Virus record (IMG/VR): IMGVR_UViG_3300044716_000090
Coordinates: 40,813-104,812 of that record
Reading direction: 5' to 3' (one strand)
DNA length: 64,000 nt
Origin: a virus
Taxonomy: Duplodnaviria; Heunggongvirae; Uroviricota; Caudoviricetes; Crassvirales
Shown here piece after piece: positions 4,848-61,408 of this stretch. Every line of letters begins with the position of its first letter. Positions within the stretch are counted from its first letter, which is position 1. A program made the position numbers and the translations under genes. The notes beneath the pieces are model-generated. The model worked only from the letters and a program-made list of their open reading frames with translations, had not been told where the DNA came from and made no database searches.

Positions 4848-4855
4848 TACTATAA

Positions 4856-13039: not shown

Positions 13040-16000
13040 TTACGAAAGACATTGTTCTACAGCTGTTCCACCAGATAAAGTACAATCTGGTGCAGATGTT
13101 GTTGTTGTTGTTGTGGTTGGTGGTACAGTAGTTGTGGTTGTAGTAGTTGGAGGTATAGTTGTAGTAGTAGTAGTAGTTGGACTTGGACAGTTAGTAAATC
13201 CTGTTGCTGTAATTGCATACAATGTACCACCTGGATCTGTTGTTATAGATCCTGTAACTACCCACGTAATACCTGGAGAAGTTACCCTATCATTAATTGC
13301 AAATGTTCCAAATGGATACTCTTGAGAGTATGATATAGAGCTATTTGCACAGTTTGTTATTTGGTACCACACAGACAATGCGGTAGTAGTGGTAGTTGTT
13401 GTAGGAGTAGCTCCACAAGCTGTTGTACAATCAGCGTTTGATGGAGCTCCATCTAAATCAACATCATATGTTGGTCCAGATACTACAGTTTGAATTTGGT
13501 ATGTAAATGAGCCCACCTTATAATATAAGCCATCAATTGTTGATAATGAAGTACTTGATCTACCCACTACATCAGGTAATACACGATTACAGTTATCATT
13601 ACAATCAAATTTTCTGAGCGAATAGTAATAATACGTTATTGCAGTAGTGGTAGTAGTTGTTGTTGGTACAGGTGGGATTGTAGTAGTAGTGGTTGTTGTA
13701 CTGCTACTAGAACTTGTAGTTGTTGTAGTGGTTGGTGAAACAGTTGTGGTAGTAGTAGTTGTACTAGAACTAGTTGTTGTAGTTGTAGTGGTTGGACACT
13801 GTTCTACAGCTGTACCAAATACACAACAAGGATCAATTGCTGTACCCTCTAATGTACAATCTACACATAAGTCAACTGCTGTACCCACTAATCTACAATC
13901 TATTGTTGTTGATGTGGTTGTTGTGGTTGTGCAATTAGGAAGCTCAGAGAAAGCAATTGCTTCTAGGTCACATCCACCATTCAATCCAGAATAGAAGAAG
14001 TTATTCTCAGCAATGTAGAAGTTAGGAATGTAGCTATGGAAGCTTATCCAACTCTTTGTATTCATGCTGAATGATAGAGTCCATGACTTATTACAGAAGT
14101 ATTCTTGGTCATAAACACTAACGGTTGTCTTCAATGTGCTACCACCTAGCACTCTTTCTACATAGAATTCCTTAGTTGTAGCATCGTATTTGATGTTCTT
14201 ACTATTAGGAATATAATCTAGTTTAGATATAATAACCCTGTCATACTTACTATCAAACACTCCATGTAAGCCAATACCATTGTAATGGTTATCTACATTT
14301 ACATTAGGGAAGTGACGTAAGATTTCAAATGCTAAATGGTCTGTAAAGAACTTATTAAGTCCTGAACCAAATGCTGACAAATCTGTAGCTTGGTTACCTG
14401 CAATTAAGAACACTTGTCCTCTCTTAGCATCTACAGTGATTTGTCCTTGAGGAATCTTTAACAACATCTTATTCTGACTTCCTACATATCCAAGGTCTGT
14501 TTCTGCAAAGTCAATTGGAGGAGCACTCTTGAATAATGTATCGTTTCCTAGGTAGGCAGCTTGTGGATTGCTAGTTTGAACTGTAAGCATTGTATTGTAT
14601 AACAATGACTTGTTCTCAAATCTAGCTAACACAGCTTTGTTCTGAATACCATCTAATGATACAAGATTACCAAAGTTTTGAGGGAAATCAAAGAATGATG
14701 TAGCTCTGTAGATTAACCAGCTATTCACTCTGTTATCAGCATACACATCCTGAGGATCTGAATAAACAGCTCTGAATGGATACTTAGTGTAACAAAGTTG
14801 TTCTGCCCAATCTGCAGGAAGATGTGTAAATGTATTCTCTTTGTTTTGTTTAGAATACGTTACATTATAATAATATGTATTATCAAAAGCAATAGGCACC
14901 ACTGATTCCTGTAACCAGTTATCAGGAATACCAGAGCTCACGTGTGGGAAGAAGTCACCTTCTAAACTATTAAATGCTTGACGTAAGTCTACATTTATAG
15001 AAGATTCACAATAGAAAGAAGGAATACCATAAGCAAATAGATACATCTTTCCATCATAGAAAGTTCTATTAGGATTTACTATAGCAGGTCTAAAAGGAGT
15101 TGCTCTACGTGGTTCAGGATTTTGGTTATTAGGACAGTCAAAGTTATGAGCCTTATAAGAAATCATATTCTTTAACACCTCACCAGTACTTAATGTATAA
15201 TCTTGTAACACTGATCTAGCTGAGTGCCAGTATTGTGGATAACCCACATTACCCACCTCATCATAGAATATATCACTATCATCAGGAGCATTCACCCTAT
15301 CATCAAAGAAGAAAGGTAATTTGGTCTTAAATGCAAACCTACTAATAAATGTATCTCCACCAAACATAGTGGCTGATTTAGGGGTAGAGAACATTAAATT
15401 GTTAATGTCAATACTTTCCTGGAATCCTGTATCAATTGTATCATAAGAGTATATCTGACCCCATTGGTTAACAAATATATTCTTTAATGATCCATAGTAA
15501 GAAACTACATTGATAGATTCATTCTTACTAGGTACAGAACAGTTGTTCTTTTGTGATATTGTAAATCTTGATGTATCAGAGATACCACTTACACCACCAA
15601 CTAATAAACTATTAGTTTGATTAGGGAATGGTAAAGGTATTACAGATGAACCATCTCTAGTGCCAATTGTTTTTAGGTATACAGATGATTCTCTATTATA
15701 GTTATTAAAATCATGTAAATCAGCTACAGACTGCACACCTGGTATAACGTATTGATACTTATCTAGTTGTCTTTGTTTGATTCCTAGATTGTTATCAATA
15801 GCTCCACTGTAATCATAACTAGCTATTGAGTTAAATGAATAAGCATAGTTTCTTCTGGTGATTCCATTTATGTAAATTGTTAGGTATGCCTGATATGCAG
15901 CAAACATAGCTGATGCACTAAATGGTGTTGTTATACGACCAATACCCTCACTAGATTGAAGAGCATCACGCTGAGCCTCTGCTGTAAGAAGCTTATACAT

Positions 16001-18367
16001 TGCGTTCTTCTTAACTTCTACAAAGTGAGCTATACCAGCACCAAACATTACATTCTCTAACTTAAGAATAGATCCTAAGAAAGGTTGTCCAAAAGAAGTT
16101 TCAGGTGAGTTAAATACCATTCTGTACTTAGACTCATCTGTAGCAAACGCATCTAATTTATCAGGATGGCAAAGTGAGTTCTTTGTTGCATTTATAGTGA
16201 TACTATAACTAGCTGTTCCAGATAAGTAGATAGGATTGGATACTGAGTTAACTTGTTGTAATCCATTACCAGTAACTGTAATTTGTCTAAATACAGTTGT
16301 TAATGGATCTTGGTATTGAAACACTGTACTATTAGCACTAGTAAGGTTATAAGTATTATAATTAACTACAGAGATTGTAGCTGCTCCACTTACAATTACA
16401 GGAGTGCTTAATGAACATATTTTATTTGTAGTTCCAAAAATTAACGTTTCAGTTTTTGTTGCATTTGAAAAACAATCTGTATATTGTACTACAGTTGCTG
16501 TAGTGGTAATTATATTATATGTAATACACTGATCAAGATAGCCATTATTATTCTCAAGAATAAACTCATCCTTATTAAGATCGTTATATGGATAGTTAGG
16601 GAAATAGAATTCTGTTTCTTCTCTTTTGTATTTACCTACGTTTCTAAGGATACCCTTAGCCACAATAGATTTGTTTGTACCTCTATCTCCTCTTACAATC
16701 TTAAATCCTGCAATGCTTTCTTTCTGTGCTTGTGTAAGATTAGATGAATACACCAAGTATGAAACTTGTTGAACATCAATCTTTACACCCATTGGAAATA
16801 CAGCATCACTTTGCATCACTGGAGAAAATCCTGACCCTAGTGTGTATGTAGGACTTTCAAATATAGGACTTACTAATACATCAGGAAACTTGTGATGTCT
16901 AATAGGTTGACCAGCAAGATTTCCCCATACATCTATGTTACATGGATAGGTGTCTGTTGATTCCCAATAAGCAAACTCACCATATTGGTAAGGTCCTTTG
17001 TATGATTGATCTGTTGTGTATCCAGGAGAAAACGATGTTACTGAACCTGTGTTATAAATCTTCCAATAAGGAGCACTTGTTCCTTCTCCAATAAAATCAG
17101 GATTAGTACTAGGAACATCTGGTTGAGAACCTTCGTTAGCACTAATCATTCTACCTGGAATGTGGAAACCATCTGTTTGCTTACCATTACTTAATAGAAA
17201 CACTATCTCAAAAGCATACACTTCATCTCTTAGATAACCTCTAAGGTTTGTAGCATTTAGCTCATCAGCATAAGTTTCTGTACTAGGGATTCTATATGTT
17301 TCCCATTTAAGATCAATTTGGCTAGCAATCTGTTGATAGTTAATTCTATCAATAGAAGTTAAGTTATCCCAGATAAGGATATCTTGTGCAGTGGTTAAGT
17401 CTTGAGCTACCTCATAGTAAGGATATTTCTCAAATATGTCAGCAATTGTAAGACGAATCTGTGTAACATTCTGTCCTGTATAAGTTATCTCTCTAGTGTT
17501 ATCTTCTATAAAATATGTTCCAATCAACTCTACAGAAGATATACTGTTTACTGTTTTAATTACAGCAATATTAAAATAATCAAATTTTCCAGTGGTATCT
17601 AAATTAGCAACACTAACTATAATAGATTTACCCACTTGATAGTTAAAATCTAGTGTGGTAACTTGTGTGTCAGCAATAGGTGTAGGGTTGGTAATAGAAT
17701 AGTAAGATGTAAATGGATTACCAGCAGCATCACAATATTGGATGGCAAACTGATATGTACCAGCAGTGAGGTCACCACCATTTCTAACATCAGTTACATC
17801 TAATGAAGGAATGCTAAAATTAGGCTGAACGTTTAATTGATTGCAATCAAGTTCAGTGGTGTAAATAGGATTACACAAATCAGCATTAGGAGCTAGTTTA
17901 TATGGAACATTATTTAGGTCTATATATCTTCTAGGATTAAGACCATCTGTCCAATACACCTCTGTAGTGCAGTTTGTAATCTTGTGAACAGCTTTAAGAA
18001 TAGGATAGTTTATATCAAAGTTTAAACAAGGTGCACTAACCAATATACGGTAGATGCAATCATTGTTATCCATATATCCAATGTGGCTATCTCCCGTTTC
18101 AGGATTAACTAGAAAGAATATGTGTTTGTTCTTTTCAACAATGAAATGAGTTCCTATTAAATGGAAGTTTGTAGGAAAGTTTAGACATAGCTCGTTCCCT
18201 GGCTCATTCTGATAGTTTACAGAATCTGAGTCAAAGTTCTCAACAGATGCATTTAATGCATAAGTTAGCTTACCTTTAGGAACCTGATTTACAGATTGAT
18301 CTAAATTTAAGCCAGCAGTAGCATTGTTATACTCTTGTTTAATATTAGTTGTTTCTTCTCCAGCCAT
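13040..18367 (-). CDS. Giant tail fibre/adhesin-like protein (1775 aa) with a C-terminal region of poly-Thr/Ser linkers and repeated Cys-bracketed CxLxGTA[VI]xxC motifs
   Basis: ORF in track. The C-terminal 330 aa contain several T7-T10 tracts and the motifs DCRLVGTAVDLC, DCTLEGTAIDPC, CVFGTAVEQC and DCTLSGGTAVEQC. The DNA repeat gttctacagctgt occurs near 13048 and 13805. Confidence 0.75.
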   Translation of the reverse strand: MAGEETTNIKQEYNNATAGLNLDQSVNQVPKGKLTYALNASVENFDSDSVNYQNEPGNELCLNFPTNFHLIGTHFIVEKNKHIFFLVNPETGDSHIGYMDNNDCIYRILVSAPCLNFDINYPILKAVHKITNCTTEVYWTDGLNPRRYIDLNNVPYKLAPNADLCNPIYTTELDCNQLNVQPNFSIPSLDVTDVRNGGDLTAGTYQFAIQYCDAAGNPFTSYYSITNPTPIADTQVTTLDFNYQVGKSIIVSVANLDTTGKFDYFNIAVIKTVNSISSVELIGTYFIEDNTREITYTGQNVTQIRLTIADIFEKYPYYEVAQDLTTAQDILIWDNLTSIDRINYQQIASQIDLKWETYRIPSTETYADELNATNLRGYLRDEVYAFEIVFLLSNGKQTDGFHIPGRMISANEGSQPDVPSTNPDFIGEGTSAPYWKIYNTGSVTSFSPGYTTDQSYKGPYQYGEFAYWESTDTYPCNIDVWGNLAGQPIRHHKFPDVLVSPIFESPTYTLGSGFSPVMQSDAVFPMGVKIDVQQVSYLVYSSNLTQAQKESIAGFKIVRGDRGTNKSIVAKGILRNVGKYKREETEFYFPNYPYNDLNKDEFILENNNGYLDQCITYNIITTTATVVQYTDCFSNATKTETLIFGTTNKICSLSTPVIVSGAATISVVNYNTYNLTSANSTVFQYQDPLTTVFRQITVTGNGLQQVNSVSNPIYLSGTASYSITINATKNSLCHPDKLDAFATDESKYRMVFNSPETSFGQPFLGSILKLENVMFGAGIAHFVEVKKNAMYKLLTAEAQRDALQSSEGIGRITTPFSASAMFAAYQAYLTIYINGITRRNYAYSFNSIASYDYSGAIDNNLGIKQRQLDKYQYVIPGVQSVADLHDFNNYNRESSVYLKTIGTRDGSSVIPLPFPNQTNSLLVGGVSGISDTSRFTISQKNNCSVPSKNESINVVSYYGSLKNIFVNQWGQIYSYDTIDTGFQESIDINNLMFSTPKSATMFGGDTFISRFAFKTKLPFFFDDRVNAPDDSDIFYDEVGNVGYPQYWHSARSVLQDYTLSTGEVLKNMISYKAHNFDCPNNQNPEPRRATPFRPAIVNPNRTFYDGKMYLFAYGIPSFYCESSINVDLRQAFNSLEGDFFPHVSSGIPDNWLQESVVPIAFDNTYYYNVTYSKQNKENTFTHLPADWAEQLCYTKYPFRAVYSDPQDVYADNRVNSWLIYRATSFFDFPQNFGNLVSLDGIQNKAVLARFENKSLLYNTMLTVQTSNPQAAYLGNDTLFKSAPPIDFAETDLGYVGSQNKMLLKIPQGQITVDAKRGQVFLIAGNQATDLSAFGSGLNKFFTDHLAFEILRHFPNVNVDNHYNGIGLHGVFDSKYDRVIISKLDYIPNSKNIKYDATTKEFYVERVLGGSTLKTTVSVYDQEYFCNKSWTLSFSMNTKSWISFHSYIPNFYIAENNFFYSGLNGGCDLEAIAFSELPNCTTTTTTSTTIDCRLVGTAVDLCVDCTLEGTAIDPCCVFGTAVEQCPTTTTTTTSSSTTTTTTTVSPTTTTTTSSSSSTTTTTTTIPPVPTTTTTTTAITYYYYSLRKFDCNDNCNRVLPDVVGRSSTSLSTIDGLYYKVGSFTYQIQTVVSGPTYDVDLDGAPSNADCTTACGATPTTTTTTTALSVWYQITNCANSSISYSQEYPFGTFAINDRVTSPGITWVVTGSITTDPGGTLYAITATGFTNCPSPTTTTTTTIPPTTTTTTTVPPTTTTTTTSAPDCTLSGGTAVEQCLS

Positions 18368-51830: not shown

Positions 51831-52703
51831 ATGTCAGGAATCGGTGGAAACAAAAGACAGCAATCAGGTGGAGAATCTACATTCTCAAAGAAGGTAGGAT
51901 TATTTGAAGCTAATGTGATTGCAATTAACCCAACAATTGAAGAGTTCAAAGACAAATTAGGTATTGAACTTAAAGAAGACAGCAAGGCGGTTGATTACTT
52001 AGGAATGAGTCAAGATGGTAACAAAACACTACGTGTAGACATCTGGCTTGAAGAAGTTAAGAGTAAGGATAAGTTTAAGGCTGTATTCTTCCTTGAGAAC
52101 AAAGAAAGAGAAAACAAAGATGGCAGCAAGAAGCAATATATCAACTCTGTTGGTAGTTGTTCTTGGGCTGATGATGAAAACAATCTTCCTAAATGGTTTA
52201 CAGAGCGTGAAGTTCGTGTAGCTAATGTAGGTGAAGAAGATCTTTATAATTTCATGCGTACATGGTTAGGTAATTTAGATTATCGTGATGCTGAAACCAC
52301 TCTACAATTAGACTGGAGCAAGCTTATGAAAGGTAATGTTAAAGACCTAAGAGACCAAATCAACGGTGAATGGTGTACAAATGTCGTTGCTTTAGCTACA
52401 GTGAAGACTGTTGAGAAAGATGGTGATATTAAGGAGTATCAAGGTGTATATAATAAGGGATTCCTACCTGCTTATACATTGAAGCAATTTAGATTGGTAG
52501 ATTTCAGTAGCTCTACAATCCTTAAGGGATTACGTGAGAAGAAGTCTAAAGATCTAAAACCTCATGAGCGTTTTGTATTAAACGTTACAGGTGAGTATGG
52601 ATGTAAAGAGTTCTATACATTCAAAGACTTAGCAGAGTATAACGCAGATGATAATCTTGTAGCCTCGGATAGAGTGCTAGAAGAAGATGATAGCGACTTT
52701 TAA
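51831..52703 (+). CDS. Hypothetical protein (290 aa); possible ssDNA-binding protein
   Basis: ORF in track. Acidic C-terminal tail (LEEDDSDF), as in phage SSBs. Assigned by position only. Confidence 0.4.
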   Translation: MSGIGGNKRQQSGGESTFSKKVGLFEANVIAINPTIEEFKDKLGIELKEDSKAVDYLGMSQDGNKTLRVDIWLEEVKSKDKFKAVFFLENKERENKDGSKKQYINSVGSCSWADDENNLPKWFTEREVRVANVGEEDLYNFMRTWLGNLDYRDAETTLQLDWSKLMKGNVKDLRDQINGEWCTNVVALATVKTVEKDGDIKEYQGVYNKGFLPAYTLKQFRLVDFSSSTILKGLREKKSKDLKPHERFVLNVTGEYGCKEFYTFKDLAEYNADDNLVASDRVLEEDDSDF

Positions 52704-52704
52704 T

Positions 52705-52760
52705 TTTGTCCCCTCCCCCTATAAAAAGCCCCTCATCTGTAAAAAGGTGGGGGGTTTTAA
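52705..52760 (+). terminator. GC-rich structured element followed by a T-run; terminator candidate
   Basis: GTCCCCTCCCCCTATAAAAAGCCCCTCATCTGTAAAAAGGTGGGGGGTTTT. C-runs and a G-run can pair. Lies between the 51831 gene and the primase. Confidence 0.4.
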
Positions 52761-52770
52761 CTTTATATAT

Positions 52771-53769
52771 ATGATAAACGGAAAAAGAAAAACAAAGCTT
52801 ACACCAGAGTCCGTACTAGACAAGATAACTGATTATGATATATTTAGATTCTATATGCCTGATAAGAGTTGGAAGCTTAACCAAGTGACCTATTCTCCAT
52901 TTAGGAATGAGAACAATCCTTCCTTTGTAATAGGGAATAAAAGGGGCTTTATATCATTTATTGACTTTGCTGATACCAGTAAGAGAGGTGATTGTTTTGA
53001 GTTTGTTAAGCTCCTTCACAATCTATCTAGTATGAATGATGTGTTAAAGATTATAGACAGAGATTTTGGATTAGGTATAGTTACCAAGGGTACAGAAGAA
53101 TACAAGAAAATAACAGCTGAATACAAACAACCAGATGCTGTTAAGAGGTATTCTCTCATCCAGGTGGTAACAAAGAAGTTTACACAAGAGGAGTTAGCCT
53201 ATTGGAATCAATATCATATAGATATAGAGGATCTAAAGAGTAACAACGTCTATTCTATCAAAAAGGTGTATTTGAACAAGAGTTTGTTCTACACTAGTGG
53301 TCAGGAAATGAGGTTTGGTTATTTCTATGATGGACATTGGAAGATTTATACACCGTTTGGAGATAAGAAAAACAAATGGTTACCTAATAATGTTCCTATC
53401 ACCGCTATGGATGGTAAAGAGGACATAGTTAATTGCAAGGTGGCATTCATCAATAAGAGTAAGAAGGACTATATGGTTATGAAGAAGATATTTCCATGTA
53501 GCTGTGCTGTACAGAATGAAGGTGTTGGATGTTTCTCTCCAGAGAACCTAGAATATCTTAAAGCTAATTCTGACAGACAAATCCTCAGCTTTGATAGCGA
53601 TGTTACAGGTGTAACTAACTCACAACAGATTACCAAGCTATTTGATTTTGATTATGCTAATGTTCCCCGTAAGTATCTAACAGAGGGTATAAAGGACTGG
53701 GCTGATTTAGCAAAAGCTCATGGTATGGGAGCAATAGAATCTTATTTAAAACAAAAACACATTTTATAA
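52771..53769 (+). CDS. DnaG-like primase with a degenerate (Cys-less) zinc-binding-domain homologue and TOPRIM-like DxD (about 332 aa)
   Basis: YSPFRNENNPSFVIGNKRGFISFIDFADTSKRGDCFEFVKLL aligns with the DnaG zinc-ribbon [36 protein letters not shown], with the metal ligands replaced. Downstream LSFDSDVTG is a DxD TOPRIM motif. The track ORF starts at 52687, but the first 84 nt overlie the terminator-like element, so Met at 52771 is preferred. Confidence 0.55.
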   Translation: MINGKRKTKLTPESVLDKITDYDIFRFYMPDKSWKLNQVTYSPFRNENNPSFVIGNKRGFISFIDFADTSKRGDCFEFVKLLHNLSSMNDVLKIIDRDFGLGIVTKGTEEYKKITAEYKQPDAVKRYSLIQVVTKKFTQEELAYWNQYHIDIEDLKSNNVYSIKKVYLNKSLFYTSGQEMRFGYFYDGHWKIYTPFGDKKNKWLPNNVPITAMDGKEDIVNCKVAFINKSKKDYMVMKKIFPCSCAVQNEGVGCFSPENLEYLKANSDRQILSFDSDVTGVTNSQQITKLFDFDYANVPRKYLTEGIKDWADLAKAHGMGAIESYLKQKHIL

Positions 53770-54540: not shown

Positions 54541-55257
54541 ATGAATTGGGATAAATTTAAAGATCAGTTTCATCCATCATGGCATAGGTTAATACAACCT
54601 TTCATTGAAAGTGAAGCTTGTGATAACATCTATAAATTTATAAAATCAGAGAGTCAGAGGGGCAAGAAAATTGCTCCTCTTTCTCCTAATGTTTATAGAT
54701 GCTTTTTAGAGACCTCACTAGATGACCTAAAGATGGTTATGGTGGGTATGTGTCCCTACCACACATTAAAGAATGGTAGTCCTATAGCAGATGGTTTGTT
54801 AATGAGCTGTTCTACAACAGGTATATTGCAGCCATCTCTAACAAAGTTCTATGATGGAATAGAAAAAGAGTTGTATCAAGGATTAAACCTCACTATACTA
54901 AAGAATCCAGATGTTACCTATTTGGCTAAACAAGGAGTGCTTATGTATAATGCAGCTTTAACCACTGAAATCAACAAAGCAGGTTCACATATTGATATCT
55001 GGGAACCTTTTACTAAGTATCTATTTGAAGAAGTGCTATCCTATACAGGAGTGCCTATTCTGTTCTTAGGAAAAGATGCTTCCAAGTATGAGAGATATGT
55101 ACCACCGTTTAGTTGGTCATTCACTGTAAGTCATCCAGCCAGTGCTTCTTACAAGCAAACTGATTGGGATACAGAAGGTGTATTTACCAAGCTAAACAAG
55201 ATACTAAAAGAAAACAATAATACAGAAATCGATTGGCTAGAAAAAGTGCCATTCTAA
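54541..55257 (+). CDS. Uracil-DNA glycosylase family-1 homologue with a non-canonical catalytic motif (238 aa)
   Basis: MVGMCPYHTLKNGSPIADGLLMSCS aligns with UNG GQDPYHGPNQAHGLAFSV, with Asp to Cys at the water-activating position. VSHPASASYKQ aligns with the HPSPLSA motif. Confidence 0.65.
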   Translation: MNWDKFKDQFHPSWHRLIQPFIESEACDNIYKFIKSESQRGKKIAPLSPNVYRCFLETSLDDLKMVMVGMCPYHTLKNGSPIADGLLMSCSTTGILQPSLTKFYDGIEKELYQGLNLTILKNPDVTYLAKQGVLMYNAALTTEINKAGSHIDIWEPFTKYLFEEVLSYTGVPILFLGKDASKYERYVPPFSWSFTVSHPASASYKQTDWDTEGVFTKLNKILKENNNTEIDWLEKVPF

Positions 55258-55270
55258 AAACACAAACACT

Positions 55271-55636
55271 ATGTACAACGTTAGATTTGGAGAAAGAATT
55301 GAAAAGGGAGACCTCATTGCTGTTGCTAATGGTAATGATTTCTCATTGGGTATTTATTATGGAAGAGGAATAGGAGGAACTGTTCAGTATTACATGCCTT
55401 CTGGTGTTAAACATGCTATGCAGTATTTTAACGATACTATGGCACAATTAGCTGCTCAAGGAAAACCTACAGAACCTCTTAAGTTAAATAGATTTTGGAA
55501 GTGTTACATTAACACACCAAGAGACACACGAATAATGAAATTAAACAGAGAAAACATTACAAGTCCAAAAGACATAGAAGAAGTTATGATAGCAAAAGAA
55601 GCACTAAAAAACTTTAACATCGACGTAAAATACTAA
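55271..55636 (+). CDS. Hypothetical (121 aa)
   Basis: ORF in track. Confidence 0.5.
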   Translation: MYNVRFGERIEKGDLIAVANGNDFSLGIYYGRGIGGTVQYYMPSGVKHAMQYFNDTMAQLAAQGKPTEPLKLNRFWKCYINTPRDTRIMKLNRENITSPKDIEEVMIAKEALKNFNIDVKY

Positions 55637-55638
55637 TC

Positions 55639-57954
55639 ATGATACTAGAAAAACAGACAGAAGCAACTATCCTACAAGAAGGAGAATCACAAGAATCAAT
55701 TGGAATGTCATTAGACCTGGACTCAGCTCAGGTGTTAATGCAAATGTTAAGTAAGAACTTATATTCAGATGCAATAGGTTCCACCATTCGTGAGTGTGCC
55801 TCTAATGCATTAGACAGTCACAGAAGAGCAGGCATTGATAAACCAATTATCGTTAGCCTCAATAGGAATAACCATGATAACTATGAATTCTCTGTAGAGG
55901 ATTTTGGTATTGGTTTAGATGCAGATGATGTAGTTAATATCATCAGCAAATATGGTAAAAGTACAAAGCGTAATAGCAACACAGAATTAGGCATGATGGG
56001 TCTTGGTTTTAAGGCCCCACTAGCATACACATCTACCTTCTATTTTACTGCAAGGAAAAATGGAATGGAAAGAAAATACATGATGTATGAGGGAGAAGAA
56101 GTGAATTCAATTGATTTACTTCATGAGACTCCCACAGATCAGCCAAACGGTGTTAAGGTGACTATACCAGTTAACTATTACGACAGACATGATTTTGTAC
56201 GTAAGACTAAAGAGCAACTAGCTTATTTTGAGAACGTGTATTTCAATGTACTAGATGGTGAGGTGGGCAATGATTTCACTATCCATAGATCTGAACACTA
56301 TCAAGCTTCTAGCTTATCCAGAGATAGTTGGTTACACATTTGTTTAGATAACGTGTATTATCCATTGGATTTCACTAGATTAGGTATAGATAGAATAAGC
56401 GTTCCTGTAGGTTTAAGATTTAGTCTTACAGATGGTCTATTCCCTACACCAAACAGAGAATCCATCAGATATACCAAGGAAGCAAAGGATATCATCCTAG
56501 CTAAGATTGGTAAAATGGTTGATCATTTTATTACCAAATACAATGAAACTGTTGCTGATTCAGATGATTTCATGGCTGTACTAAGATACCATGCTACAAA
56601 CAGAAGATATGTTGATGTTCCTGGTAAGAATACTAACTTTGATTTAAGTGATTTAGTTAAACATGGTAGTGTTCTAATCGCTTCTCCTAAGGTGAGCAGC
56701 TTAAAGAAGCTTGACTTACAAAAACTTGTCAGAAACAAGGAATACATCCTTGGTGAGTATGATAAGAAGTTTGAGCTTTACAATGGTAGAATGTCTCAAT
56801 TAAAAACCTATTGGAGATCTGGTGTTGATGTTATAAACAGAAACGATGAACCACACTATTTCTATTCTGAGAAGATTAGTGGTGCTATGAAGGATTATAT
56901 TAAGAGTATAGCTCCAAAGAGCAGACATGCATATTTCATTAGAAAGGTGAAGACATTTAAACTGGGTGGTCTTACAAAAATGAATGATTATGACACTTAC
57001 ATGAAGCTTCTTGACTTACCAAATTATCCAAGAACTGAGTGGAGAGAGCTTATTACAGAGTTTCAAGCTGTGTTAGCTTCTCTTACAAAGACATTCATCA
57101 ACCTTGATGAGATGGTAATACCACAAGCTTTCCTAGATTCTAGGAAGAAGCAAAAGGGAATCACTGTTAATGTTGGTGGAACAAAGGTGAGACGTATTAA
57201 GTTGGAAGGTGAAGTGATTGGTAGGTATGCTGTGGACTTAGAGAGGTATGTAGATGGTAAGAATTCTAAACTGGTTAGCAAGATTTATAGTCTTGCTGAA
57301 ATGCATAAGTATAACAAGCTTGTTATCTATGGTTCCCAGGCAGATATCTCTACTATGGATAAACTATATGGAGCTATTAATAAGAATAAGGTAGAACTAG
57401 CTGTATTCTCTGAGAGAGAACTTAAGACGCTATCTACTATTGACGTACACAATCTAATCCCTTTAAGCAAGTTTATGGAAGGTAAAAACAAACCATTCAA
57501 GAGAATTGTAACAGCCTATCTAATCCAAAAGTTACACAACAGCTTCAGCAGGTCATTCATTAGAAGAGAGAAAATTGGTCTCATCTCTACAGATTTATGT
57601 GAAAAAATGAGAAGACTAAGTGATTACAAGATTGAGCATCACTGTGGTGGTAATGACACAATCTATAATTCTATGCTAGAGGTAGCACAAACACATAACT
57701 TATTTGATATGGAGATATATCATGAGTATGTGGAAGTGAAGAACCTTTTAGAAAGATTACCATTCATTGAAGCTATGGCAGATAAACTCCAGAGCTACGA
57801 TAATGATAACTCTCCAATAATCAGTGCATTCCGTGATTTATTCAAGTATCATGGACATAGAATTGACTGGAAACACTACAATATTCGTATTAATGAAGAG
57901 GTAGTGGAAGAGTTAACAGAGAATTCTGTTGAAGAGTTAGTAGAGAATATTTAA
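55639..57954 (+). CDS. GHKL-superfamily (Hsp90/MutL/MORC-type) ATPase with a 600-aa C-terminal region of unknown function (771 aa)
   Basis: N-box is IRECASNALDSH (ExxxNxxD). G1 is VEDFGIGLD (DxGxG). G2 is ELGMMGLGFKAP (GxxGxG), resembling Hsp90 IGQFGVGFYS. Motif spacing fits the Bergerat fold. No TOPRIM EGDSA motif seen. Confidence 0.7.
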   Translation: MILEKQTEATILQEGESQESIGMSLDLDSAQVLMQMLSKNLYSDAIGSTIRECASNALDSHRRAGIDKPIIVSLNRNNHDNYEFSVEDFGIGLDADDVVNIISKYGKSTKRNSNTELGMMGLGFKAPLAYTSTFYFTARKNGMERKYMMYEGEEVNSIDLLHETPTDQPNGVKVTIPVNYYDRHDFVRKTKEQLAYFENVYFNVLDGEVGNDFTIHRSEHYQASSLSRDSWLHICLDNVYYPLDFTRLGIDRISVPVGLRFSLTDGLFPTPNRESIRYTKEAKDIILAKIGKMVDHFITKYNETVADSDDFMAVLRYHATNRRYVDVPGKNTNFDLSDLVKHGSVLIASPKVSSLKKLDLQKLVRNKEYILGEYDKKFELYNGRMSQLKTYWRSGVDVINRNDEPHYFYSEKISGAMKDYIKSIAPKSRHAYFIRKVKTFKLGGLTKMNDYDTYMKLLDLPNYPRTEWRELITEFQAVLASLTKTFINLDEMVIPQAFLDSRKKQKGITVNVGGTKVRRIKLEGEVIGRYAVDLERYVDGKNSKLVSKIYSLAEMHKYNKLVIYGSQADISTMDKLYGAINKNKVELAVFSERELKTLSTIDVHNLIPLSKFMEGKNKPFKRIVTAYLIQKLHNSFSRSFIRREKIGLISTDLCEKMRRLSDYKIEHHCGGNDTIYNSMLEVAQTHNLFDMEIYHEYVEVKNLLERLPFIEAMADKLQSYDNDNSPIISAFRDLFKYHGHRIDWKHYNIRINEEVVEELTENSVEELVENI

Positions 57955-58114
57955 ACAAAGTGCAATAAATTACACATATATTTCTAATTGTTTAATCTTT
58001 TATGCATAATATGTATTAAACGTTAAACAATTAGAAATATATTGCACTTTTTGCATGAATTTTTCTGAAATTTCATGCAAGTCAACTATTTAATAAAACA
58101 AAAAACAAAACAAA
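57955..58114. promoter_or_regulatory. 160-bp AT-rich intergenic region with two separate inverted repeats
   Basis: IR1 is ATATTTCTAATTGTTTAA (57976..57993) paired with TTAAACAATTAGAAATAT (58022..58039), extended by GTGCAATA/TATTGCAC. IR2 is TGCATGAATTT-TTCTG-AAATTTCATGCA (about 58063..58090). Confidence 0.5.
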
Positions 58115-59689
58115 ATGGGACTATTCAGTTTAAGCTGGTTCAAAAGCCAGAAACAAAAGCAATTAGATGAATTACAACATGAGATTGAAGTTAAAAAATT
58201 AGAGAAGACACTAGAAAGACTAGATGAAAAAGAGAAACCTTCTACTTACACAATAGGGATTAGTAATCCATGGGTACCTACTACAACAAGTGTTGTTAAA
58301 CCTTATTCTAACATTAAGATTGTGAATGATGTGCTTACTGTGGTGCTTAATGATGGTTCTATCATTACTAAGTCTAAAGCTACACCAGAAGACTTCAATA
58401 ATGCCAGAGAATGTAAGACAGAAGCTTGTTTGTTGACCCTTGTAGGTTCTCCAGATATACTAAAAGAGAAGCAAGAAGCACAGGCTAAATATGAGAAAGC
58501 TAAGGCTATTCAGAAAGGTGCTGAGTATCTAGCTAAGTTTGATGATTTTGAGATGAAAGACGGTAGTCTTTATATCAAGGGAATCAATAGAAGCATTCCA
58601 CCTTTGATGGTAGATGAGTTCTTACGCATCATTGGTAATCACAGTTACAACTCTATGGAAAATGTAACAGATAGAGAAATTGATGAGGTGAATGAACTTA
58701 TACAAGAAGACGAAGAGTATCAATCTCTTAAGCGTTTCTTTATGTGGTGTTGCTTAAATCCTAGAGCTGAGGTGGCTGACAAGCTATACAACTTCCTAAA
58801 GAAGAATAGCTTCCGTATCACCAAGCAAGGATTCTTTGTAGCATTACGTAACGTTGTAACATTACATGGATCTACAGAGCTAGTACAGTTTATCAGCAAT
58901 GCTTACAACAAGACTAAAGCTGTATGGAAGAAGAACCCAGCTGATTATTTTGTATTCTTACAAGATGATGGTCAATACAAAATGGTTCACAGAGATGCTT
59001 TGTATAGGTCAGAAATGGTTGAGTGTTCTTATTGTGATGGTTATAAGTTTGTTCCAGATGAAGATAATGAGGAAGAAAACATAGAATGTCCAGAATGCGA
59101 TGGAACTGGTGAATATGAAGAAATGACATCTGTTGACTATGGTGAAAGAATTGGTAACTTAACAGACCTCTATCTTGATTTGCCTAATAGAGTAGAGAAT
59201 AGATTTACAGATGCTCACACAAAGACGTTTGACATCAGAATTGGTAGACCAGTGAACATGCCTATGGAGCAATGTAGATGGAATACTGATGATTGTGGTG
59301 CTGAAGGTCTTCACTTCACATCTGATGAGATTCATTATGTAGGTTGTGGTGATACATCTGTACTTGTACTTATCAATCCAATGAAGGTTGTAGGTATCGG
59401 TGAGTCTAAGGGTAGATGTTATGAGTATTTACCAATCATGACTGTTCCTCGTGAAGAAGCAACAGAAATCTTACATGATCTAGACTTTGATACAATGGAG
59501 CTTGATGAGAGCTATGCAATTCGCGAATTGGAAAATCTAGGTACAAAAGCTAGAGAAGGCTTTATTGCAGAAGCTAAGAAGTATGAGTTCAATCTCCCTG
59601 CTTTATCTGCTGTAGAAGTACTTAAAATCGTTAAGAACCTTGACGAAATAAGACAAGAAATCTCTAAGAGAATCGTAAATATTGACTAA
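58115..59689 (+). CDS. Protein with DnaJ-type CxxCxGxG zinc-finger repeats (524 aa)
   Basis: CSYCDGYKF ... CPECDGTGE are two CxxCxGxG units of the DnaJ cysteine-rich domain type. Remainder unknown. Confidence 0.6.
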   Translation: MGLFSLSWFKSQKQKQLDELQHEIEVKKLEKTLERLDEKEKPSTYTIGISNPWVPTTTSVVKPYSNIKIVNDVLTVVLNDGSIITKSKATPEDFNNARECKTEACLLTLVGSPDILKEKQEAQAKYEKAKAIQKGAEYLAKFDDFEMKDGSLYIKGINRSIPPLMVDEFLRIIGNHSYNSMENVTDREIDEVNELIQEDEEYQSLKRFFMWCCLNPRAEVADKLYNFLKKNSFRITKQGFFVALRNVVTLHGSTELVQFISNAYNKTKAVWKKNPADYFVFLQDDGQYKMVHRDALYRSEMVECSYCDGYKFVPDEDNEEENIECPECDGTGEYEEMTSVDYGERIGNLTDLYLDLPNRVENRFTDAHTKTFDIRIGRPVNMPMEQCRWNTDDCGAEGLHFTSDEIHYVGCGDTSVLVLINPMKVVGIGESKGRCYEYLPIMTVPREEATEILHDLDFDTMELDESYAIRELENLGTKAREGFIAEAKKYEFNLPALSAVEVLKIVKNLDEIRQEISKRIVNID

Positions 59690-59697
59690 CTTTGTAG

Positions 59698-59728
59698 GAC
59701 CAGGGGCTAAAATCCCTGGTCTTATATT
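59698..59728 (+). terminator. Rho-independent terminator
   Basis: GACCAGGG-GCTAAAAT-CCCTGGTC is a perfect 8-bp stem, followed by TTATATT. Confidence 0.6.
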
Positions 59729-59734
59729 AAGCTT

Positions 59735-60136
59735 ATGAAAAAGAACGCAACAAAGAGAAGAGCAAAAATACCTAGAGCTAAAAATCCAAAGGTGAGAAAC
59801 GCTGGTACTATGACAGAATCAGCTTTCTGGAGCTTCATTAGAAGTGCTTTGAGACAGAAATCTAGATGGTGGAAACCTATTACAGAATGCAAGATGAAAG
59901 CTCGTAGGGCATATAAAGGTCCCAGTAAGAGACAAAAATTTGAATATCAATGCAATAGCTGTAAAGAATGGTTTCCAGAGAAACAAATTAACGTGGATCA
60001 CATTAAGCCTGCAGGTAGTTTAAACTGTAAAGAAGACTTAGCAGGATTTGTAGAACGTCTGTTCTGTGAATTAGATAATCTACAGGTGCTGTGTGAGAAA
60101 TGCCATGATGTAAAAACTAAACTAGAGAAAAAATGA
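59735..60136 (+). CDS. HNH endonuclease (133 aa)
   Basis: CNSC ... VDHIKP ... NLQVLCEKCH is the canonical HNH arrangement. Confidence 0.7.
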   Translation: MKKNATKRRAKIPRAKNPKVRNAGTMTESAFWSFIRSALRQKSRWWKPITECKMKARRAYKGPSKRQKFEYQCNSCKEWFPEKQINVDHIKPAGSLNCKEDLAGFVERLFCELDNLQVLCEKCHDVKTKLEKK

Positions 60137-60402
60137 GTGATTTAGAAATAACAATCAACAAAGAGCCATCTTTTACAGAGATATGGCATGAGGGATACAT
60201 AACTTACAACTCACAAAAGCATTACTTCTGGTTAATCCACCCACGCAATGTAGATGATAAGGGAGATCCTTATGAACTAGAAGTGAGATGGTTCTTCCAG
60301 AGGGTGCCAAGAGAAGTGAGAGCTATGCATCCATATATTATAGAATCTTTTAAACAAACACTAAATGATACAGGGACCAAACAGAACAGAGGCAGCTTAT
60401 AG
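60133..60402 (+). CDS. Hypothetical (89 aa)
   Basis: ORF in track, ATGA overlap with the HNH gene. Confidence 0.45.
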   Translation: MSDLEITINKEPSFTEIWHEGYITYNSQKHYFWLIHPRNVDDKGDPYELEVRWFFQRVPREVRAMHPYIIESFKQTLNDTGTKQNRGSL

Positions 60403-61408
60403 AGCCATCCAGATGGATAGTTCTTCTAGCTTAAAAGAATTCTCTACAGACAGAAAGAAGTATTATAAGAAATACATTCTTAATGAGTCTGTGGAAGATA
60501 AAGATTCAATGGCAGCAACCATTGGTAGAGTGGTGGAGACATTGCTTATGGAACCTGAGTTATTTGATACCAGGTTTTATATGTCAACTGTTGTTAGTGC
60601 ACCAACAGGATTAATGTTAGAATTTGTAGAAGCATTGTATAAGCATACAGCCGCAGCTACAAATGCAGATGGTGTACTCACTAGAGAATTTGAAGACATT
60701 GCAAAAGATGCGCATGCTGATTCAGGATTCAAGATTACACTTGATGCTGTCCTTAAGAAGTTTGTAGGATCTGATGCAGAAATCTATTACAAAGAAATCC
60801 GTGAGGTGAGAAGCAAGGGCCTCACCGTTGTTACCACACAGGATGTAACCAATGCAGAAAAGGTTGTAGAAGAGCTTAAGGTTAATGATTTTACAGCTCC
60901 TGTTGTAAACCTAGTTAACAGCGCACGTTATAACGTGTATAACCAATTACAGATAGAAGGATATGTTGTATTTGGTCACATGTTTAAGAGCATGTTAGAT
61001 AAGGTGATTGTTGACCACCAAGAGAAAACCATCCAGGTGAGCGATCTTAAATGCACGTGGGCTGTAGAGAACTTCTATGATGAGTATTATCTCTATCGTA
61101 GAGCTTACATTCAAGGATACTTATACTATTATGCAGCAAAGCACATGTTTGATGAGCTTGTAGCTGTAGAATATGAAGTGTTACCTCCTCAGTTTATCGT
61201 TTGTGACAGCACTAACTATGCATGTCCGTTGATATTCAGAATGGATGATAACACATTCCAAGATGCAGAGCAAGGCTTTGAGTATAAAGGAAGGAAGTAT
61301 CCTGGTGTTAAGAGTCTTATTGAGGACCTCAAATGGGCTATCAAGAATGACAAATGGAACATTTCAAGAGAGAATTATTTAAATAACGGCATAGTAAAAT
61401 TAGGCTAA
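60365..61408 (+). CDS. PD-(D/E)xK-type nuclease candidate (347 aa), recombination exonuclease-like
   Basis: KVIVDHQEKTIQVSDLKCT gives the hVD ... (S)DLK pattern of the restriction-endonuclease-like fold. Assigned by motif only. Confidence 0.45.
   Translation: MIQGPNRTEAAYRAIQMDSSSSLKEFSTDRKKYYKKYILNESVEDKDSMAATIGRVVETLLMEPELFDTRFYMSTVVSAPTGLMLEFVEALYKHTAAATNADGVLTREFEDIAKDAHADSGFKITLDAVLKKFVGSDAEIYYKEIREVRSKGLTVVTTQDVTNAEKVVEELKVNDFTAPVVNLVNSARYNVYNQLQIEGYVVFGHMFKSMLDKVIVDHQEKTIQVSDLKCTWAVENFYDEYYLYRRAYIQGYLYYYAAKHMFDELVAVEYEVLPPQFIVCDSTNYACPLIFRMDDNTFQDAEQGFEYKGRKYPGVKSLIEDLKWAIKNDKWNISRENYLNNGIVKLG

What the first reader, a model, noticed from the sequence alone, without database searches (positions are those of the whole stretch)
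55639..60136. Module of GHKL (Hsp90/MutL-like) ATPase, DnaJ-type zinc-finger protein and HNH nuclease, separated by a palindrome-rich regulatory gap
The 771-aa protein carries all Bergerat-fold motifs (N-box RECASNALD, G1 DFGIG, G2 GMMGLGF) but no recognisable TOPRIM. Its 600-aa C-terminal region is uncharacterised. It is followed, after a 160-bp gap with two inverted repeats, by a 524-aa protein with two CxxCxGxG (DnaJ cysteine-rich-domain-like) zinc-finger units, its own terminator, and then an HNH endonuclease. GHKL ATPases paired with nucleases recur in bacterial immune and anti-immune systems (MORC-like). This could be a phage-borne defence against co-infecting elements, an anti-defence module, or an unusual chaperone-like pair.
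Basis: partly seen in the sequence, partly recalled or inferred. Interest (0 to 1): 0.7.

Follow-up and report, generated by a model that had tools for sequence, protein, structure and literature searches.

The report
Phage rIIA–rIIB pair, plus neighbouring HNH
The two large genes are a divergent copy of the classic phage rIIA–rIIB pair (Benzer's rII locus, a counter-defence module found in thousands of phages), and the HNH nuclease next to it is only a neighbour, so the finding is real but ordinary.

Summary

The 771-aa protein is rIIA. It matches the RIIA profile phrog_612 over its full length (E 9e-57), matches rIIA genes in 2,567 phage records, and its model matches predicted RIIA structures end to end.

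The 524-aa protein is rIIB. It matches phrog_609 (E 1e-16), and its family profile aligns with a T4-like RIIB at 99.1% hhalign probability (E 1e-18). The "DnaJ-type" zinc finger is a single CxxC…CxxC zinc ribbon. It scores below the Pfam cut-off and sits in an insertion found only in the closest relatives.

rIIA lies directly upstream of rIIB in every related locus with enough DNA except one (about 160 loci fetched). The HNH gene is missing downstream in 16 of the more distant loci, is separated from rIIB by a conserved terminator-like hairpin, and in N4-like phages lies among exonuclease genes. The palindromic gap is limited to close relatives; many others have a 10–12 nt junction, as T4-like phages do.

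The phage is an uncultured, crAss-related phage of about 115 kb, probably with a Bacteroidota host. By analogy with T4 and N4, the likely role is counter-defence against abortive infection. Standard annotation already names both genes. Interest is low.

The parts
55639..57954 (+). rIIA homologue, 771 aa: an N-terminal GHKL ATPase plus a second GHL-type domain (about aa 43-300), then an RIIA-family C-terminal region
   Evidence: phrog_612 RIIA, E 8.9e-57, protein 1-722 against profile 1-711 of 725. tblastn finds 2,567 phage records, annotated rIIA. BLASTP against a T4-like rIIA gives E 7e-19 with aligned motifs. The AF2 model has pLDDT 78. BFVD matches to RIIA of KVP40, 44RR2.8t and RB43 span about 800 columns.
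55771..56082 (+). Bergerat-fold ATP-binding core of rIIA (aa 45-148): N-box E52/N56, G1 D88-G92, G2 G118-G123
57955..58114 (.). 160-nt rIIA-rIIB spacer. It holds a long AT-rich hairpin (outer stem 57957-58050, followed by TTTTT), a second perfect-stem hairpin at 58051-58080, and an A-rich leader without a Shine-Dalgarno motif.
   Evidence: z = -8.6. It is conserved only in close relatives (window, L006, L008-L015). The junction is 10-12 nt in many others and 11 nt in the T4-like locus L001. It is not a dispersed repeat.
58115..59689 (+). rIIB homologue, 524 aa, enlarged relative to the 312-aa T4 rIIB
   Evidence: phrog_609 1e-16, phrog_11221 4e-10 and phrog_36818 3e-7, all RIIB. BLASTP against a T4-like rIIB gives two collinear segments, E 6e-7 and 6e-5. 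The family profile A5 aligns with T4-like RIIB at hhalign probability 99.1%, E 1.2e-18. All 17 members of A5 hit phrog_609. The gene lies directly downstream of rIIA.
59024..59098 (+). Zinc-ribbon insert in rIIB (C304-x2-C307 ... C325-x2-C328), lying within an insertion of about 110 aa relative to T4 rIIB
   Evidence: The four Cys are invariant in A3. The motif is present in only 2 of 103 full-length representatives of the wider family. Pfam DnaJ_CXXCXGXG is below its cut-off.
59189..59446 (+). Conserved rIIB core (aa 359-444: RFTDAHTKTFDIRIG...GLHF...INPMKVVGIG..KGRCYEY)
   Evidence: This is the stretch that matches all RIIB PHROGs and T4-like rIIB residues 217-301.
59693..59726 (+). Terminator-like hairpin immediately after the rIIB stop, followed by TTATATT
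   Evidence: -21.6 kcal/mol, z = -4.5. A hairpin in the same place, with different stem sequences, is present in 43 of 50 distinct spacers in relatives.
59735..60136 (+). HNH endonuclease, 133 aa. It is a conserved neighbour within this phage clade and is not judged part of the rII unit.
   Evidence: phrog_1985 2.6e-25; Pfam HNH 21.9 bits against a cut-off of 21.4. It shows 51-98% identity and sits directly downstream in the nearer relatives, apart from two loci with about 0.5 kb inserted. It is absent in 16 more distant rIIA-rIIB loci. Homologues in N4-like phages lie among exonuclease genes.

Best explanation
The locus is a divergent rIIA-rIIB gene pair in the early/replication gene block of an uncultured, crAss-related phage of about 115 kb, probably with a Bacteroidota host.

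Shown here: the 771-aa protein is homologous to RIIA over its full length. It has an intact N-terminal GHKL ATP-binding site and a second GHL-type domain. The 524-aa protein is homologous to RIIB. Relative to T4 RIIB it has an N-terminal helix, an insertion of about 110 aa that carries one clade-specific zinc ribbon, and a helical C-terminal extension. The two genes are adjacent and co-oriented in all but one of the related loci that hold the DNA upstream of rIIB. Fused RIIA-RIIB proteins exist elsewhere. A conserved hairpin ends the unit before the HNH gene.

Inferred by analogy with T4, T6, N4 and others (PMC11879866, PMC10312443, PMC8594841): the two proteins act together early in infection as a conditionally needed counter-defence. 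They would keep the infected cell alive and energised against abortive-infection systems of the Rex type. rIIA would supply ATP-driven conformational switching of the kind other GHL ATPases perform, and rIIB would be the partner or effector. In some hosts rIIB is itself sensed by CARD-NLR/gasdermin-type systems.

The 160-nt spacer is a lineage-specific insertion of hairpins. The first hairpin looks like a terminator or attenuator (stem followed by TTTTT). It probably lets rIIB be expressed separately from rIIA.

The HNH nuclease is a separate, strongly conserved gene of the neighbouring replication/recombination block.
For: rIIA identity: phrog_612, E 8.9e-57, full length. 2,567 phage records match, mostly annotated rIIA. 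Motif-for-motif alignment with a T4-like rIIA. Foldseek against BFVD finds RIIA of KVP40 (1e-26), 44RR2.8t and Marfa, the RB43 RIIA-RIIB fusion, and a crAss-like phage's 'protector from prophage-induced early lysis', over about 800 columns.

rIIB identity: three RIIB PHROGs match. All 17 of the diverse family members in A5 hit phrog_609. hhalign of the family profile against T4-like RIIB gives 99.1%, E 1.2e-18. The alignment is collinear with T4 rIIB.

Linkage: rIIA is immediately upstream of rIIB in L003-L087 and L102-L178 wherever DNA is available, except L145. The junction is 10-12 nt in many loci, the same as the 11 nt in T4-like L001. phrog_609 and RB43 Q56C47 are fused forms.

Function by analogy: divergent rII modules (<40% identity, five genera) are all needed against lambda RexAB and dispensable otherwise (PMC11879866). 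RIIB triggers the Lysobacter and Pedobacter CARD-NLR systems (PMC10312443).

Host and phage: the terminase is nearest to Cellulophaga, Flavobacterium, Bacteroides (crAss-like) and Leptolyngbya phages. 40 of 41 genes lack an SD motif and have A-rich leaders. Relatives lie on contigs of about 113-120 kb.
Against: The function has not been tested in this phage or its host. Even in T4 the molecular mechanism of rII is unknown.

Identity to T4 rIIA is only 22% over the first ~350 aa (BLASTP), although the RIIA profile and the predicted RIIA structures match the whole length.

The AF2 model of rIIB is poor (pLDDT 55.5). The fold of rIIB, the zinc-ribbon geometry and any rIIA-rIIB interface are therefore unverified.

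No transmembrane segment is present in either protein, so membrane association, known for T4, is only assumed.

No Rex homologue is known to me in Bacteroidota, so the actual target system is unknown.

The HNH gene stays adjacent throughout the nearer clade and is more conserved than rIIA/B. A functional tie cannot be excluded by genomics alone.
Confidence: 0.85

Rival explanations
1. There is a three-gene GHKL ATPase / zinc-finger protein / HNH nuclease module, MORC-like or defence-like, in which the nuclease is the effector controlled by the ATPase.
For: rIIA-rIIB-HNH are contiguous in every nearer relative (L003-L087, down to about 51% rIIB identity), even where flanking genes such as p121 and p89 come and go. 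GHKL ATPases do pair with nucleases in some defence systems (my own knowledge).
Against: 16 more distant loci keep rIIA-rIIB but have no HNH downstream. A conserved terminator-like hairpin separates rIIB from HNH. HNH homologues in N4-like phages sit among exonuclease genes rather than beside rII. The genus distributions of the two families differ. T4-like rII has no such HNH. PADLOC gives no match apart from one marginal hit for the ATPase (TmtA, E 0.009). HNH evolves more slowly than rIIA/B, unlike an arms-race partner.
Confidence: 0.06
2. rIIB is a transcription factor that tunes phage transcription to host state, as suggested by Iyer et al. 2021 (PMC7824862), and rIIA is its ATP-dependent regulator. 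On this view the counter-defence phenotype is indirect.
For: PMC7824862 classes rIIB as a specific transcription factor. The clade-specific zinc ribbon and two weak hits of family members to anti-terminator Q-like PHROGs would fit nucleic-acid binding. rIIB is strongly acidic overall, but the ribbon is local.
Against: The net charge of rIIB is -28, which is unusual for a DNA-binding protein. No HTH or other DNA-binding Pfam domain was found. The zinc ribbon is absent from most of the family. Published experiments point to membrane-level and Abi-related effects (PMC10312443, PMC11879866).
Confidence: 0.07
3. The pair is an Hsp90-like chaperone (771 aa) with a DnaJ-like zinc-finger co-chaperone (524 aa).
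Confidence: 0.02
4. The 771-aa protein is the ATPase subunit of a split type II topoisomerase.
For: Weak sequence hits of the ATP-binding core to topo VI-B (PDB E 0.0016; NCBIfam E 7e-9, but 34.7 bits against a cut-off of 274).
Against: There is no TOPRIM or cleavage partner in the protein or its neighbours. The only Toprim-like hit nearby is the DnaG-type primase at 52687-53769. The protein is homologous to RIIA over its full length. T4-like phages carry both a real topo II and rIIA as separate genes.
Confidence: 0.01

Closest known systems
Bacteriophage T4 rIIA / rIIB (the rII locus; compared here with Tequatrovirus teqdroes gp097/gp098, L001)
   Same: Same gene order and strand. rIIA has the same N-box, G1 and G2 GHKL motifs and similar length (771 against 725 aa). 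The rIIB core motifs are shared (…NP…LF.FL..N...IT..G.F.A… and …F D.H..TFD...G..V.MP…GLH…P..VV.IP…K.R.C.Y). The 10-12 nt junction seen in many relatives equals the T4-like 11 nt.
   Different: Identity is about 22% for rIIA (BLASTP, first ~350 aa) and about 25-33% for the two matching rIIB segments. rIIB is 524 aa against 312 aa: it has an added N-terminal helix with an invariant WFK motif, an insert of about 110 aa with a zinc ribbon, and a C-terminal extension of about 85 aa. This window has a 160-nt hairpin-rich spacer. The phage is crAss-related with a probable Bacteroidota host, not a T-even myovirus of Enterobacteria.
Divergent rII modules of N4, SUSP1, EdH4 and MM02 (Adler et al. 2025, PMC11879866) and the fused RIIA-RIIB of phage RB43 (Q56C47; phrog_609)
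   Same: They show that rIIA+rIIB travel as a unit across unrelated phage families at <40% identity. The fusion supports physical cooperation. The window proteins match phrog_609 at both its GHKL end and its RIIB end.
   Different: Those modules were tested against lambda RexAB in E. coli. Nothing has been tested for this clade.
GHL-class GHKL ATPases (Hsp90/GRP94/TRAP1, ParE/GyrB, topo VI-B, MutL/PMS1, MORC2, SMCHD1)
   Different: No single subfamily stands out. There is no TOPRIM, no MutL endonuclease domain and no CW or coiled-coil MORC modules. The C-terminal ~450 aa has no match among solved structures and is RIIA-specific.
DnaJ cysteine-rich domain (Pfam PF00684)
   Same: One CxxCxGxG-type knuckle (CPECDGTG) and a second CxxC.
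   Different: DnaJ has four CxxCxGxG repeats forming two zinc centres, together with a J domain. Here there are two CxxC knuckles (one zinc site) and no J domain. The match is 16.3 bits against a cut-off of 32.7, and the element is a clade-specific insert.
Phage HNH endonuclease family phrog_1985
   Same: The 133-aa protein matches it at E 2.6e-25. Homologues occur in 825 phage records.
   Different: In this clade it sits next to rIIB. Elsewhere (N4-like StenR_269, DES1) it sits among exonuclease and replication genes.

Membership tests
RIIA (phage rIIA protein family) | Homology to RIIA over the whole protein, not only the ATPase core | tested here: met
   phrog_612 covers protein 1-722 and profile 1-711 of 725, E 8.9e-57. 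BFVD RIIA models align over about 800 columns, E 1e-26 to 1e-15.
RIIA (phage rIIA protein family) | N-terminal GHKL ATP-binding motifs (N-box, G1, G2) | tested here: met
   Pfam HATPase_c_3 and HATPase_c are above their cut-offs. The motifs align with T4-like rIIA. The motif residues are invariant in 43 homologues.
RIIA (phage rIIA protein family) | Encoded immediately upstream of rIIB on the same strand | tested here: met
   Window. About 160 related loci were fetched; every one that holds the upstream DNA shows this order, except L145.
RIIA/RIIB | Conditionally required against Rex-type abortive infection; membrane association | not testable with these tools
   Known for T4, N4 and others from the literature (PMC11879866, PMC8594841). 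There are no TM segments here. No experiment is possible with these tools.
RIIB (phage rIIB protein family) | Homology to RIIB profiles and to T4 RIIB | tested here: met
   phrog_609 1e-16, phrog_11221 4e-10, phrog_36818 3e-7. 17 of 17 family members hit phrog_609. hhalign gives 99.1%, E 1.2e-18, covering T4-like RIIB residues 137-306 of 312.
RIIB (phage rIIB protein family) | Same fold as T4 RIIB | tested here: inconclusive
   The AF2 model of the window protein has pLDDT 55.5 and the RIIB core is below 50. No solved RIIB structure was found by sequence.
DnaJ cysteine-rich (zinc-finger) domain | Four CxxCxGxG repeats forming two zinc centres; score above the Pfam gathering threshold | tested here: not met
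   There are two CxxC knuckles only. PF00684 scores 16.3 bits against 32.7, E 0.012.
Type II topoisomerase ATPase subunit (GyrB / ParE / topo VI-B) | TOPRIM domain or a cleavage-subunit partner; score above the family cut-offs | tested here: not met
   NCBIfam topo VI-B scores 34.7 bits against a cut-off of 274. There is no TOPRIM in the protein. The nearby Toprim-like signal belongs to the DnaG-type primase.
MORC / Hsp90 / MutL subfamilies of GHKL | Subfamily-specific domains beyond the GHL core, and a clearly best structural match | tested here: not met
Known anti-phage defence systems (PADLOC models) | Match of any of the three proteins to a defence-system model | tested here: not met
   The only hit is a marginal 11.5-bit match to TmtA, E 0.009. 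There are none for rIIB or HNH.
HNH endonuclease | HNH motif and profile match | tested here: met
   Pfam HNH scores 21.9 bits against 21.4 (borderline). phrog_1985 gives 2.6e-25. The residues D88-H89…N115…H124 and the Cys pairs are invariant in four homologues.

The most novel reading that the evidence does not exclude
In this large, uncultured phage clade (probably infecting Bacteroidota), the enlarged rIIB with its zinc ribbon and the invariably adjacent, slowly evolving HNH nuclease might form a clade-specific extension of the rII system: a three-part counter-defence unit. Alternatively, these rIIB proteins might be the natural triggers of Bacteroidota CARD-NLR/gasdermin-type systems, such as the Pedobacter system that responds to T6 RIIB.
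Probability: 0.1. Interest if true: 0.5.

Novelty: new member of a known kind. Interest (0 to 1): 0.2.

Why it matters
It matters little as a discovery. rIIA/rIIB is among the oldest known phage loci, and a standard PHROGs annotation names both genes.

It has modest value as a data point. The rII pair is abundant in a large clade of uncultured crAss-related phages: more than 2,300 rIIB homologues in metagenomes, all labelled 'hypothetical'. Its rIIB architecture is enlarged, with a clade-specific zinc ribbon. Because the molecular mechanism of rII is still unknown after 70 years, such divergent natural variants show which parts are dispensable (the zinc ribbon and the C-terminal extension) and which are invariant (the GHKL site and the RFTD…GLH…NP..VV core). 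They could also be used to test whether Bacteroidota CARD-NLR systems sense native rIIB proteins.

Tried and rejected
- A megablast of the 4.5-kb region against 50,697 phage records found no match, so there is no close cultured relative.
- tblastn of the 524-aa protein against the phage collection found no match at E<=1e-5. Homology to rIIB needed profiles.
- The PDB sequence search found nothing for rIIB and only generic GHKL cores for rIIA.
- NCBIfam gave only sub-threshold topo VI-B and Hsp90 hits.
- PADLOC gave only a marginal TmtA hit, E 0.009.
- Rfam found nothing in 55000-60600 except a chance-level hit.
- The sigma-70 promoter scan found fewer sites than in shuffled sequence, and the terminator scan no more than expected by chance. 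Neither is informative for a probable Bacteroidota host.
- AlphaFold2 of rIIB with a 38-sequence, 65-95%-identity alignment gave pLDDT 55.5, too poor for a fold search, so none was run on it.
- I tested whether the gap palindromes are a dispersed mobile repeat. Within the window they are unique. In IMG/VR, hairpin 1 occurs in 3 contigs and hairpin 2 in 7; those that could be matched to contigs already fetched are this same locus. The idea was rejected.
- I looked for rII in the cultured phage with the nearest terminase, Leptolyngbya phage Lbo-JY46. It has no rIIA, rIIB or HNH by tblastn or HMM.
- The split-topoisomerase and Hsp90/DnaJ chaperone readings were considered and rejected; see the rival explanations.

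Full report
**Observation**

The three ORFs are exactly where the finding says: 55639-57954 (771 aa), 58115-59689 (524 aa) and 59735-60136 (133 aa), all on the + strand. Their key residues (E52, N56, D59, D88, G90, G92, G118, G121, G123) are invariant in 43 homologues. Pfam HATPase_c_3 and HATPase_c are just above their gathering cut-offs.

The 160-nt spacer holds two strong inverted repeats: 33-nt arms at 88% complementarity and 13-nt arms at 92%. It folds far better than shuffled sequence (-44.7 kcal/mol, z = -8.6). A hairpin follows the stop codon of the second gene (59693-59726, z = -4.5).

The two CxxC units are real and invariant (C304, C307, C325, C328). The Pfam DnaJ_CXXCXGXG match, however, is far below its cut-off (16.3 against 32.7 bits).

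**What the two large genes are**

A PHROGs scan names them directly. The 771-aa protein matches RIIA family phrog_612 from end to end (protein 1-722, profile 1-711 of 725, E 8.9e-57), along with six other RIIA families. The 524-aa protein matches three RIIB families through residues 359-444 (phrog_609 at 1e-16).

tblastn with the first protein finds 2,567 phage records. Where the match is annotated, it is mostly 'rIIA' or 'protector from prophage-induced early lysis'. Against a T4-like phage (teqdroes, L001) the rIIA alignment places N-box, G1 and G2 on top of each other (E 7e-19).

The second protein gives two collinear segments with the 312-aa T4-like RIIB: window 189-247 with T4 159-217, and window 360-438 with T4 217-301. 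To strengthen this I built a diverse family profile (A5, 17 sequences, 25-40% identity to its first member). All 17 members hit phrog_609. hhalign of A5 against the T4-like RIIB gives 99.1% probability, E 1.2e-18, over T4 residues 137-306.

An AlphaFold2 model of the rIIA homologue (pLDDT 78) matches predicted RIIA structures along about 800 columns. These include KVP40, 44RR2.8t, Marfa, a crAss-like phage, and the fused 'RIIA-RIIB membrane-associated' protein of RB43. The closest entry is an uncharacterised protein of Virus NIOZ-UU157, at 44% identity.

**How this rIIB differs from T4's**

An alignment of the window protein, 16 distant representatives and T4-like RIIB shows T4 RIIB aligned along its whole length. 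Relative to it, the metagenomic family adds three things:

- an N-terminal helix with an invariant W-F-K motif;
- an insert of about 110 aa between '…ALRNVV' and 'RFTD…';
- a helical C-terminal extension of about 85 aa.

The zinc ribbon sits inside the insert. It is present in only 2 of 103 full-length 50%-identity cluster representatives of the family. It is therefore a clade-specific decoration, not the identity of the protein.

The AF2 model of rIIB was poor (pLDDT 55.5), so its fold was not analysed. Neither protein has a transmembrane segment. rIIB is strongly acidic, with net charge -28.

**Is it a three-gene module?**

The rIIB homologue has more than 2,300 relatives in metagenomes, all unnamed, on contigs of about 113-120 kb.

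In 85 nearer loci (L003-L087; rIIB identity 51-93%) the order UDG – (p121) – rIIA – rIIB – HNH – (p89) – exonuclease is kept wherever DNA is available. That is general synteny of one phage clade and is not informative on its own.

In 77 loci found with the distant profile (L102-L178), rIIA is still immediately upstream of rIIB in every locus that holds the upstream DNA, with one exception (L145). The HNH gene, however, is missing in 16 loci that have at least 1 kb of downstream sequence.

Four further observations separate HNH from rII:

- A hairpin directly after the rIIB stop is present in 43 of 50 distinct spacers, with different stem sequences. This is conservation of structure, and it looks like a terminator.
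- HNH is more conserved (51-98%) than rIIA (35-96%) or rIIB (51-93%).
- Its family (phrog_1985) occurs in 825 phage records with a different genus distribution from rIIA.
- In N4-like phages it lies among exonuclease genes rather than next to rII.

T4-like rII has no such neighbour. I conclude that rIIA-rIIB is the unit and HNH is a neighbour from the replication/recombination block. No PADLOC defence model matches any of the three proteins beyond one marginal hit (TmtA, E 0.009).

**The spacer**

The rIIA-rIIB junction takes several forms across relatives:

- 10-12 nt in many relatives, compared with 11 nt in the T4-like locus;
- about 50 nt with one GC-rich hairpin plus a T run in others;
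- 120-285 nt in several lineages, either with AT-rich nested palindromes (window, L006, L008-L015) or with small inserted ORFs.

The window's hairpin 1 shows one compensatory change in L006. Hairpin 2 is exactly conserved in seven IMG/VR contigs; those that could be matched to contigs already fetched are this same locus. Neither hairpin is a dispersed repeat.

The outer stem of hairpin 1 (GTGCAAT…ATTGCAC) is followed by TTTTT, so it is a plausible terminator or attenuator. The spacer is real and locally conserved. It is a lineage-specific insertion at a junction that tolerates insertions, not a defining feature of the module.

**Phage and host**

The window carries terminase, portal, major head protein, DNA polymerase, helicases, primase, Sak4-like annealing protein, UDG-like protein and exonuclease genes.

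The terminase is nearest to Leptolyngbya phage Lbo-JY46 (40%), Cellulophaga phages phi17:2 and phi4:1 (32%) and crAss-like phages (about 27%). Lbo-JY46 itself has no rII.

Forty of 41 genes lack an SD-like motif, and their leaders are 50% A. By my own knowledge this is the Bacteroidota pattern.

**Mechanism**

Shown here: homology, an intact ATP site, strict pairing, and the existence of fused forms.

From the literature:

- rIIA/rIIB are dispensable in the absence of Rex but required against lambda RexAB. This holds for divergent modules from five genera (PMC11879866; also 10.1101/2025.11.20.689424 and PMC8594841).
- RIIB alone triggers the Lysobacter and Pedobacter CARD-NLR/gasdermin systems (PMC10312443).
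- Iyer et al. describe rIIA as a GHKL ATPase with a variable C-terminus in a 'poorly understood counter-defence system', and treat rIIB as a possible transcription factor (PMC7824862).

Inferred: the window pair acts early in infection as a two-protein, ATP-driven counter-defence against abortive-infection systems of its host. The target system and the biochemical step are unknown.

**Verdict**

This is a real feature, correctly described but misinterpreted in its parts. It is a new, divergent member of a very well known kind. A routine annotation would already call both genes, so interest is low (0.2). The residual novel reading is that the zinc-ribbon rIIB and the linked HNH form a clade-specific extension, or that these proteins are the native triggers of Bacteroidota CARD-NLR systems. 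It is not excluded, but it has little support (about 0.1).

Noticed in passing
rIIA-rIIB junction: window 57955-58114, and the same junction in L003-L087: The junction tolerates insertions across the clade. It is 10-12 nt in many loci (11 nt in T4-like L001) and about 50 nt with a GC-rich hairpin and T run in others. Elsewhere it is 120-285 nt, with nested AT-rich palindromes or small ORFs (a Cys-rich peptide in L073/L074/L087, a hydrophobic peptide in L050/L051/L085, others in L020 and L042).
   Followed up: partly
L145 (IMGVR_UViG_3300025682_000104), 4283-5951: A UDG-like gene is followed directly by rIIB, with no rIIA detected. This is the only related locus where the pair is broken.
   Followed up: no
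window, 20 nt upstream of 41 ORFs: Only 1 of 41 genes has a Shine-Dalgarno-like motif. The leaders are 50% A and 8% G (for example AAAACAAAAAACAAAACAAA before rIIB). Together with the terminase relatives (Cellulophaga, Flavobacterium and Bacteroides phages), this points to a Bacteroidota host.
   Followed up: partly
window 59735-60136 and its homologues in L003-L087: The HNH endonuclease is more conserved (51-98% identity) than the flanking rIIA/rIIB. This argues against a selfish homing endonuclease and for a core replication/recombination or packaging role. In N4-like phages (L088, L089) its homologues lie among exonuclease genes.
   Followed up: partly
window 59693-59726, and the rIIB-HNH spacers of relatives: A hairpin after the rIIB stop is present in 43 of 50 distinct spacers, with many different stem sequences. 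This is covariation-like conservation of a terminator-type structure.
   Followed up: partly
window 58115-58150 (rIIB aa 1-12): The N-terminus of this rIIB family carries an invariant W8-F9-K10 motif ahead of a long helix, and it is also recognisable in distant relatives. It may be an amphipathic membrane-targeting segment, since neither rIIA nor rIIB has a TM helix.
   Followed up: no
window 55271-55636 (+, 121 aa): A small gene ends 2 nt before the rIIA start. It has no family match in Pfam, PHROGs or NCBIfam. It is present upstream of rIIA in many but not all relatives.
   Followed up: no
L099-L101 (Leptolyngbya phage Lbo-JY46, PP438436.1): The cultured phage with the most similar terminase (40%) infects a cyanobacterium. 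It lacks detectable rIIA, rIIB, the HNH, the UDG-like gene and the exonuclease of this window, so the replication module is not shared with it.
   Followed up: partly
BFVD entry A0A7S9SU81 (Virus NIOZ-UU157): This is the closest named relative of the rIIA homologue (44% identity, E 6e-72), and it is itself labelled 'uncharacterized protein'. The whole clade's rII genes are unannotated in public records.
   Followed up: no
window 13040-18367 (-, 1775 aa), 7516-10713 (-, 1065 aa), 4856-7429 (-, 857 aa): These are very large structural-module ORFs. The 1775-aa protein matches virion structural protein PHROGs, while the other two have no PHROG match.
   Followed up: no
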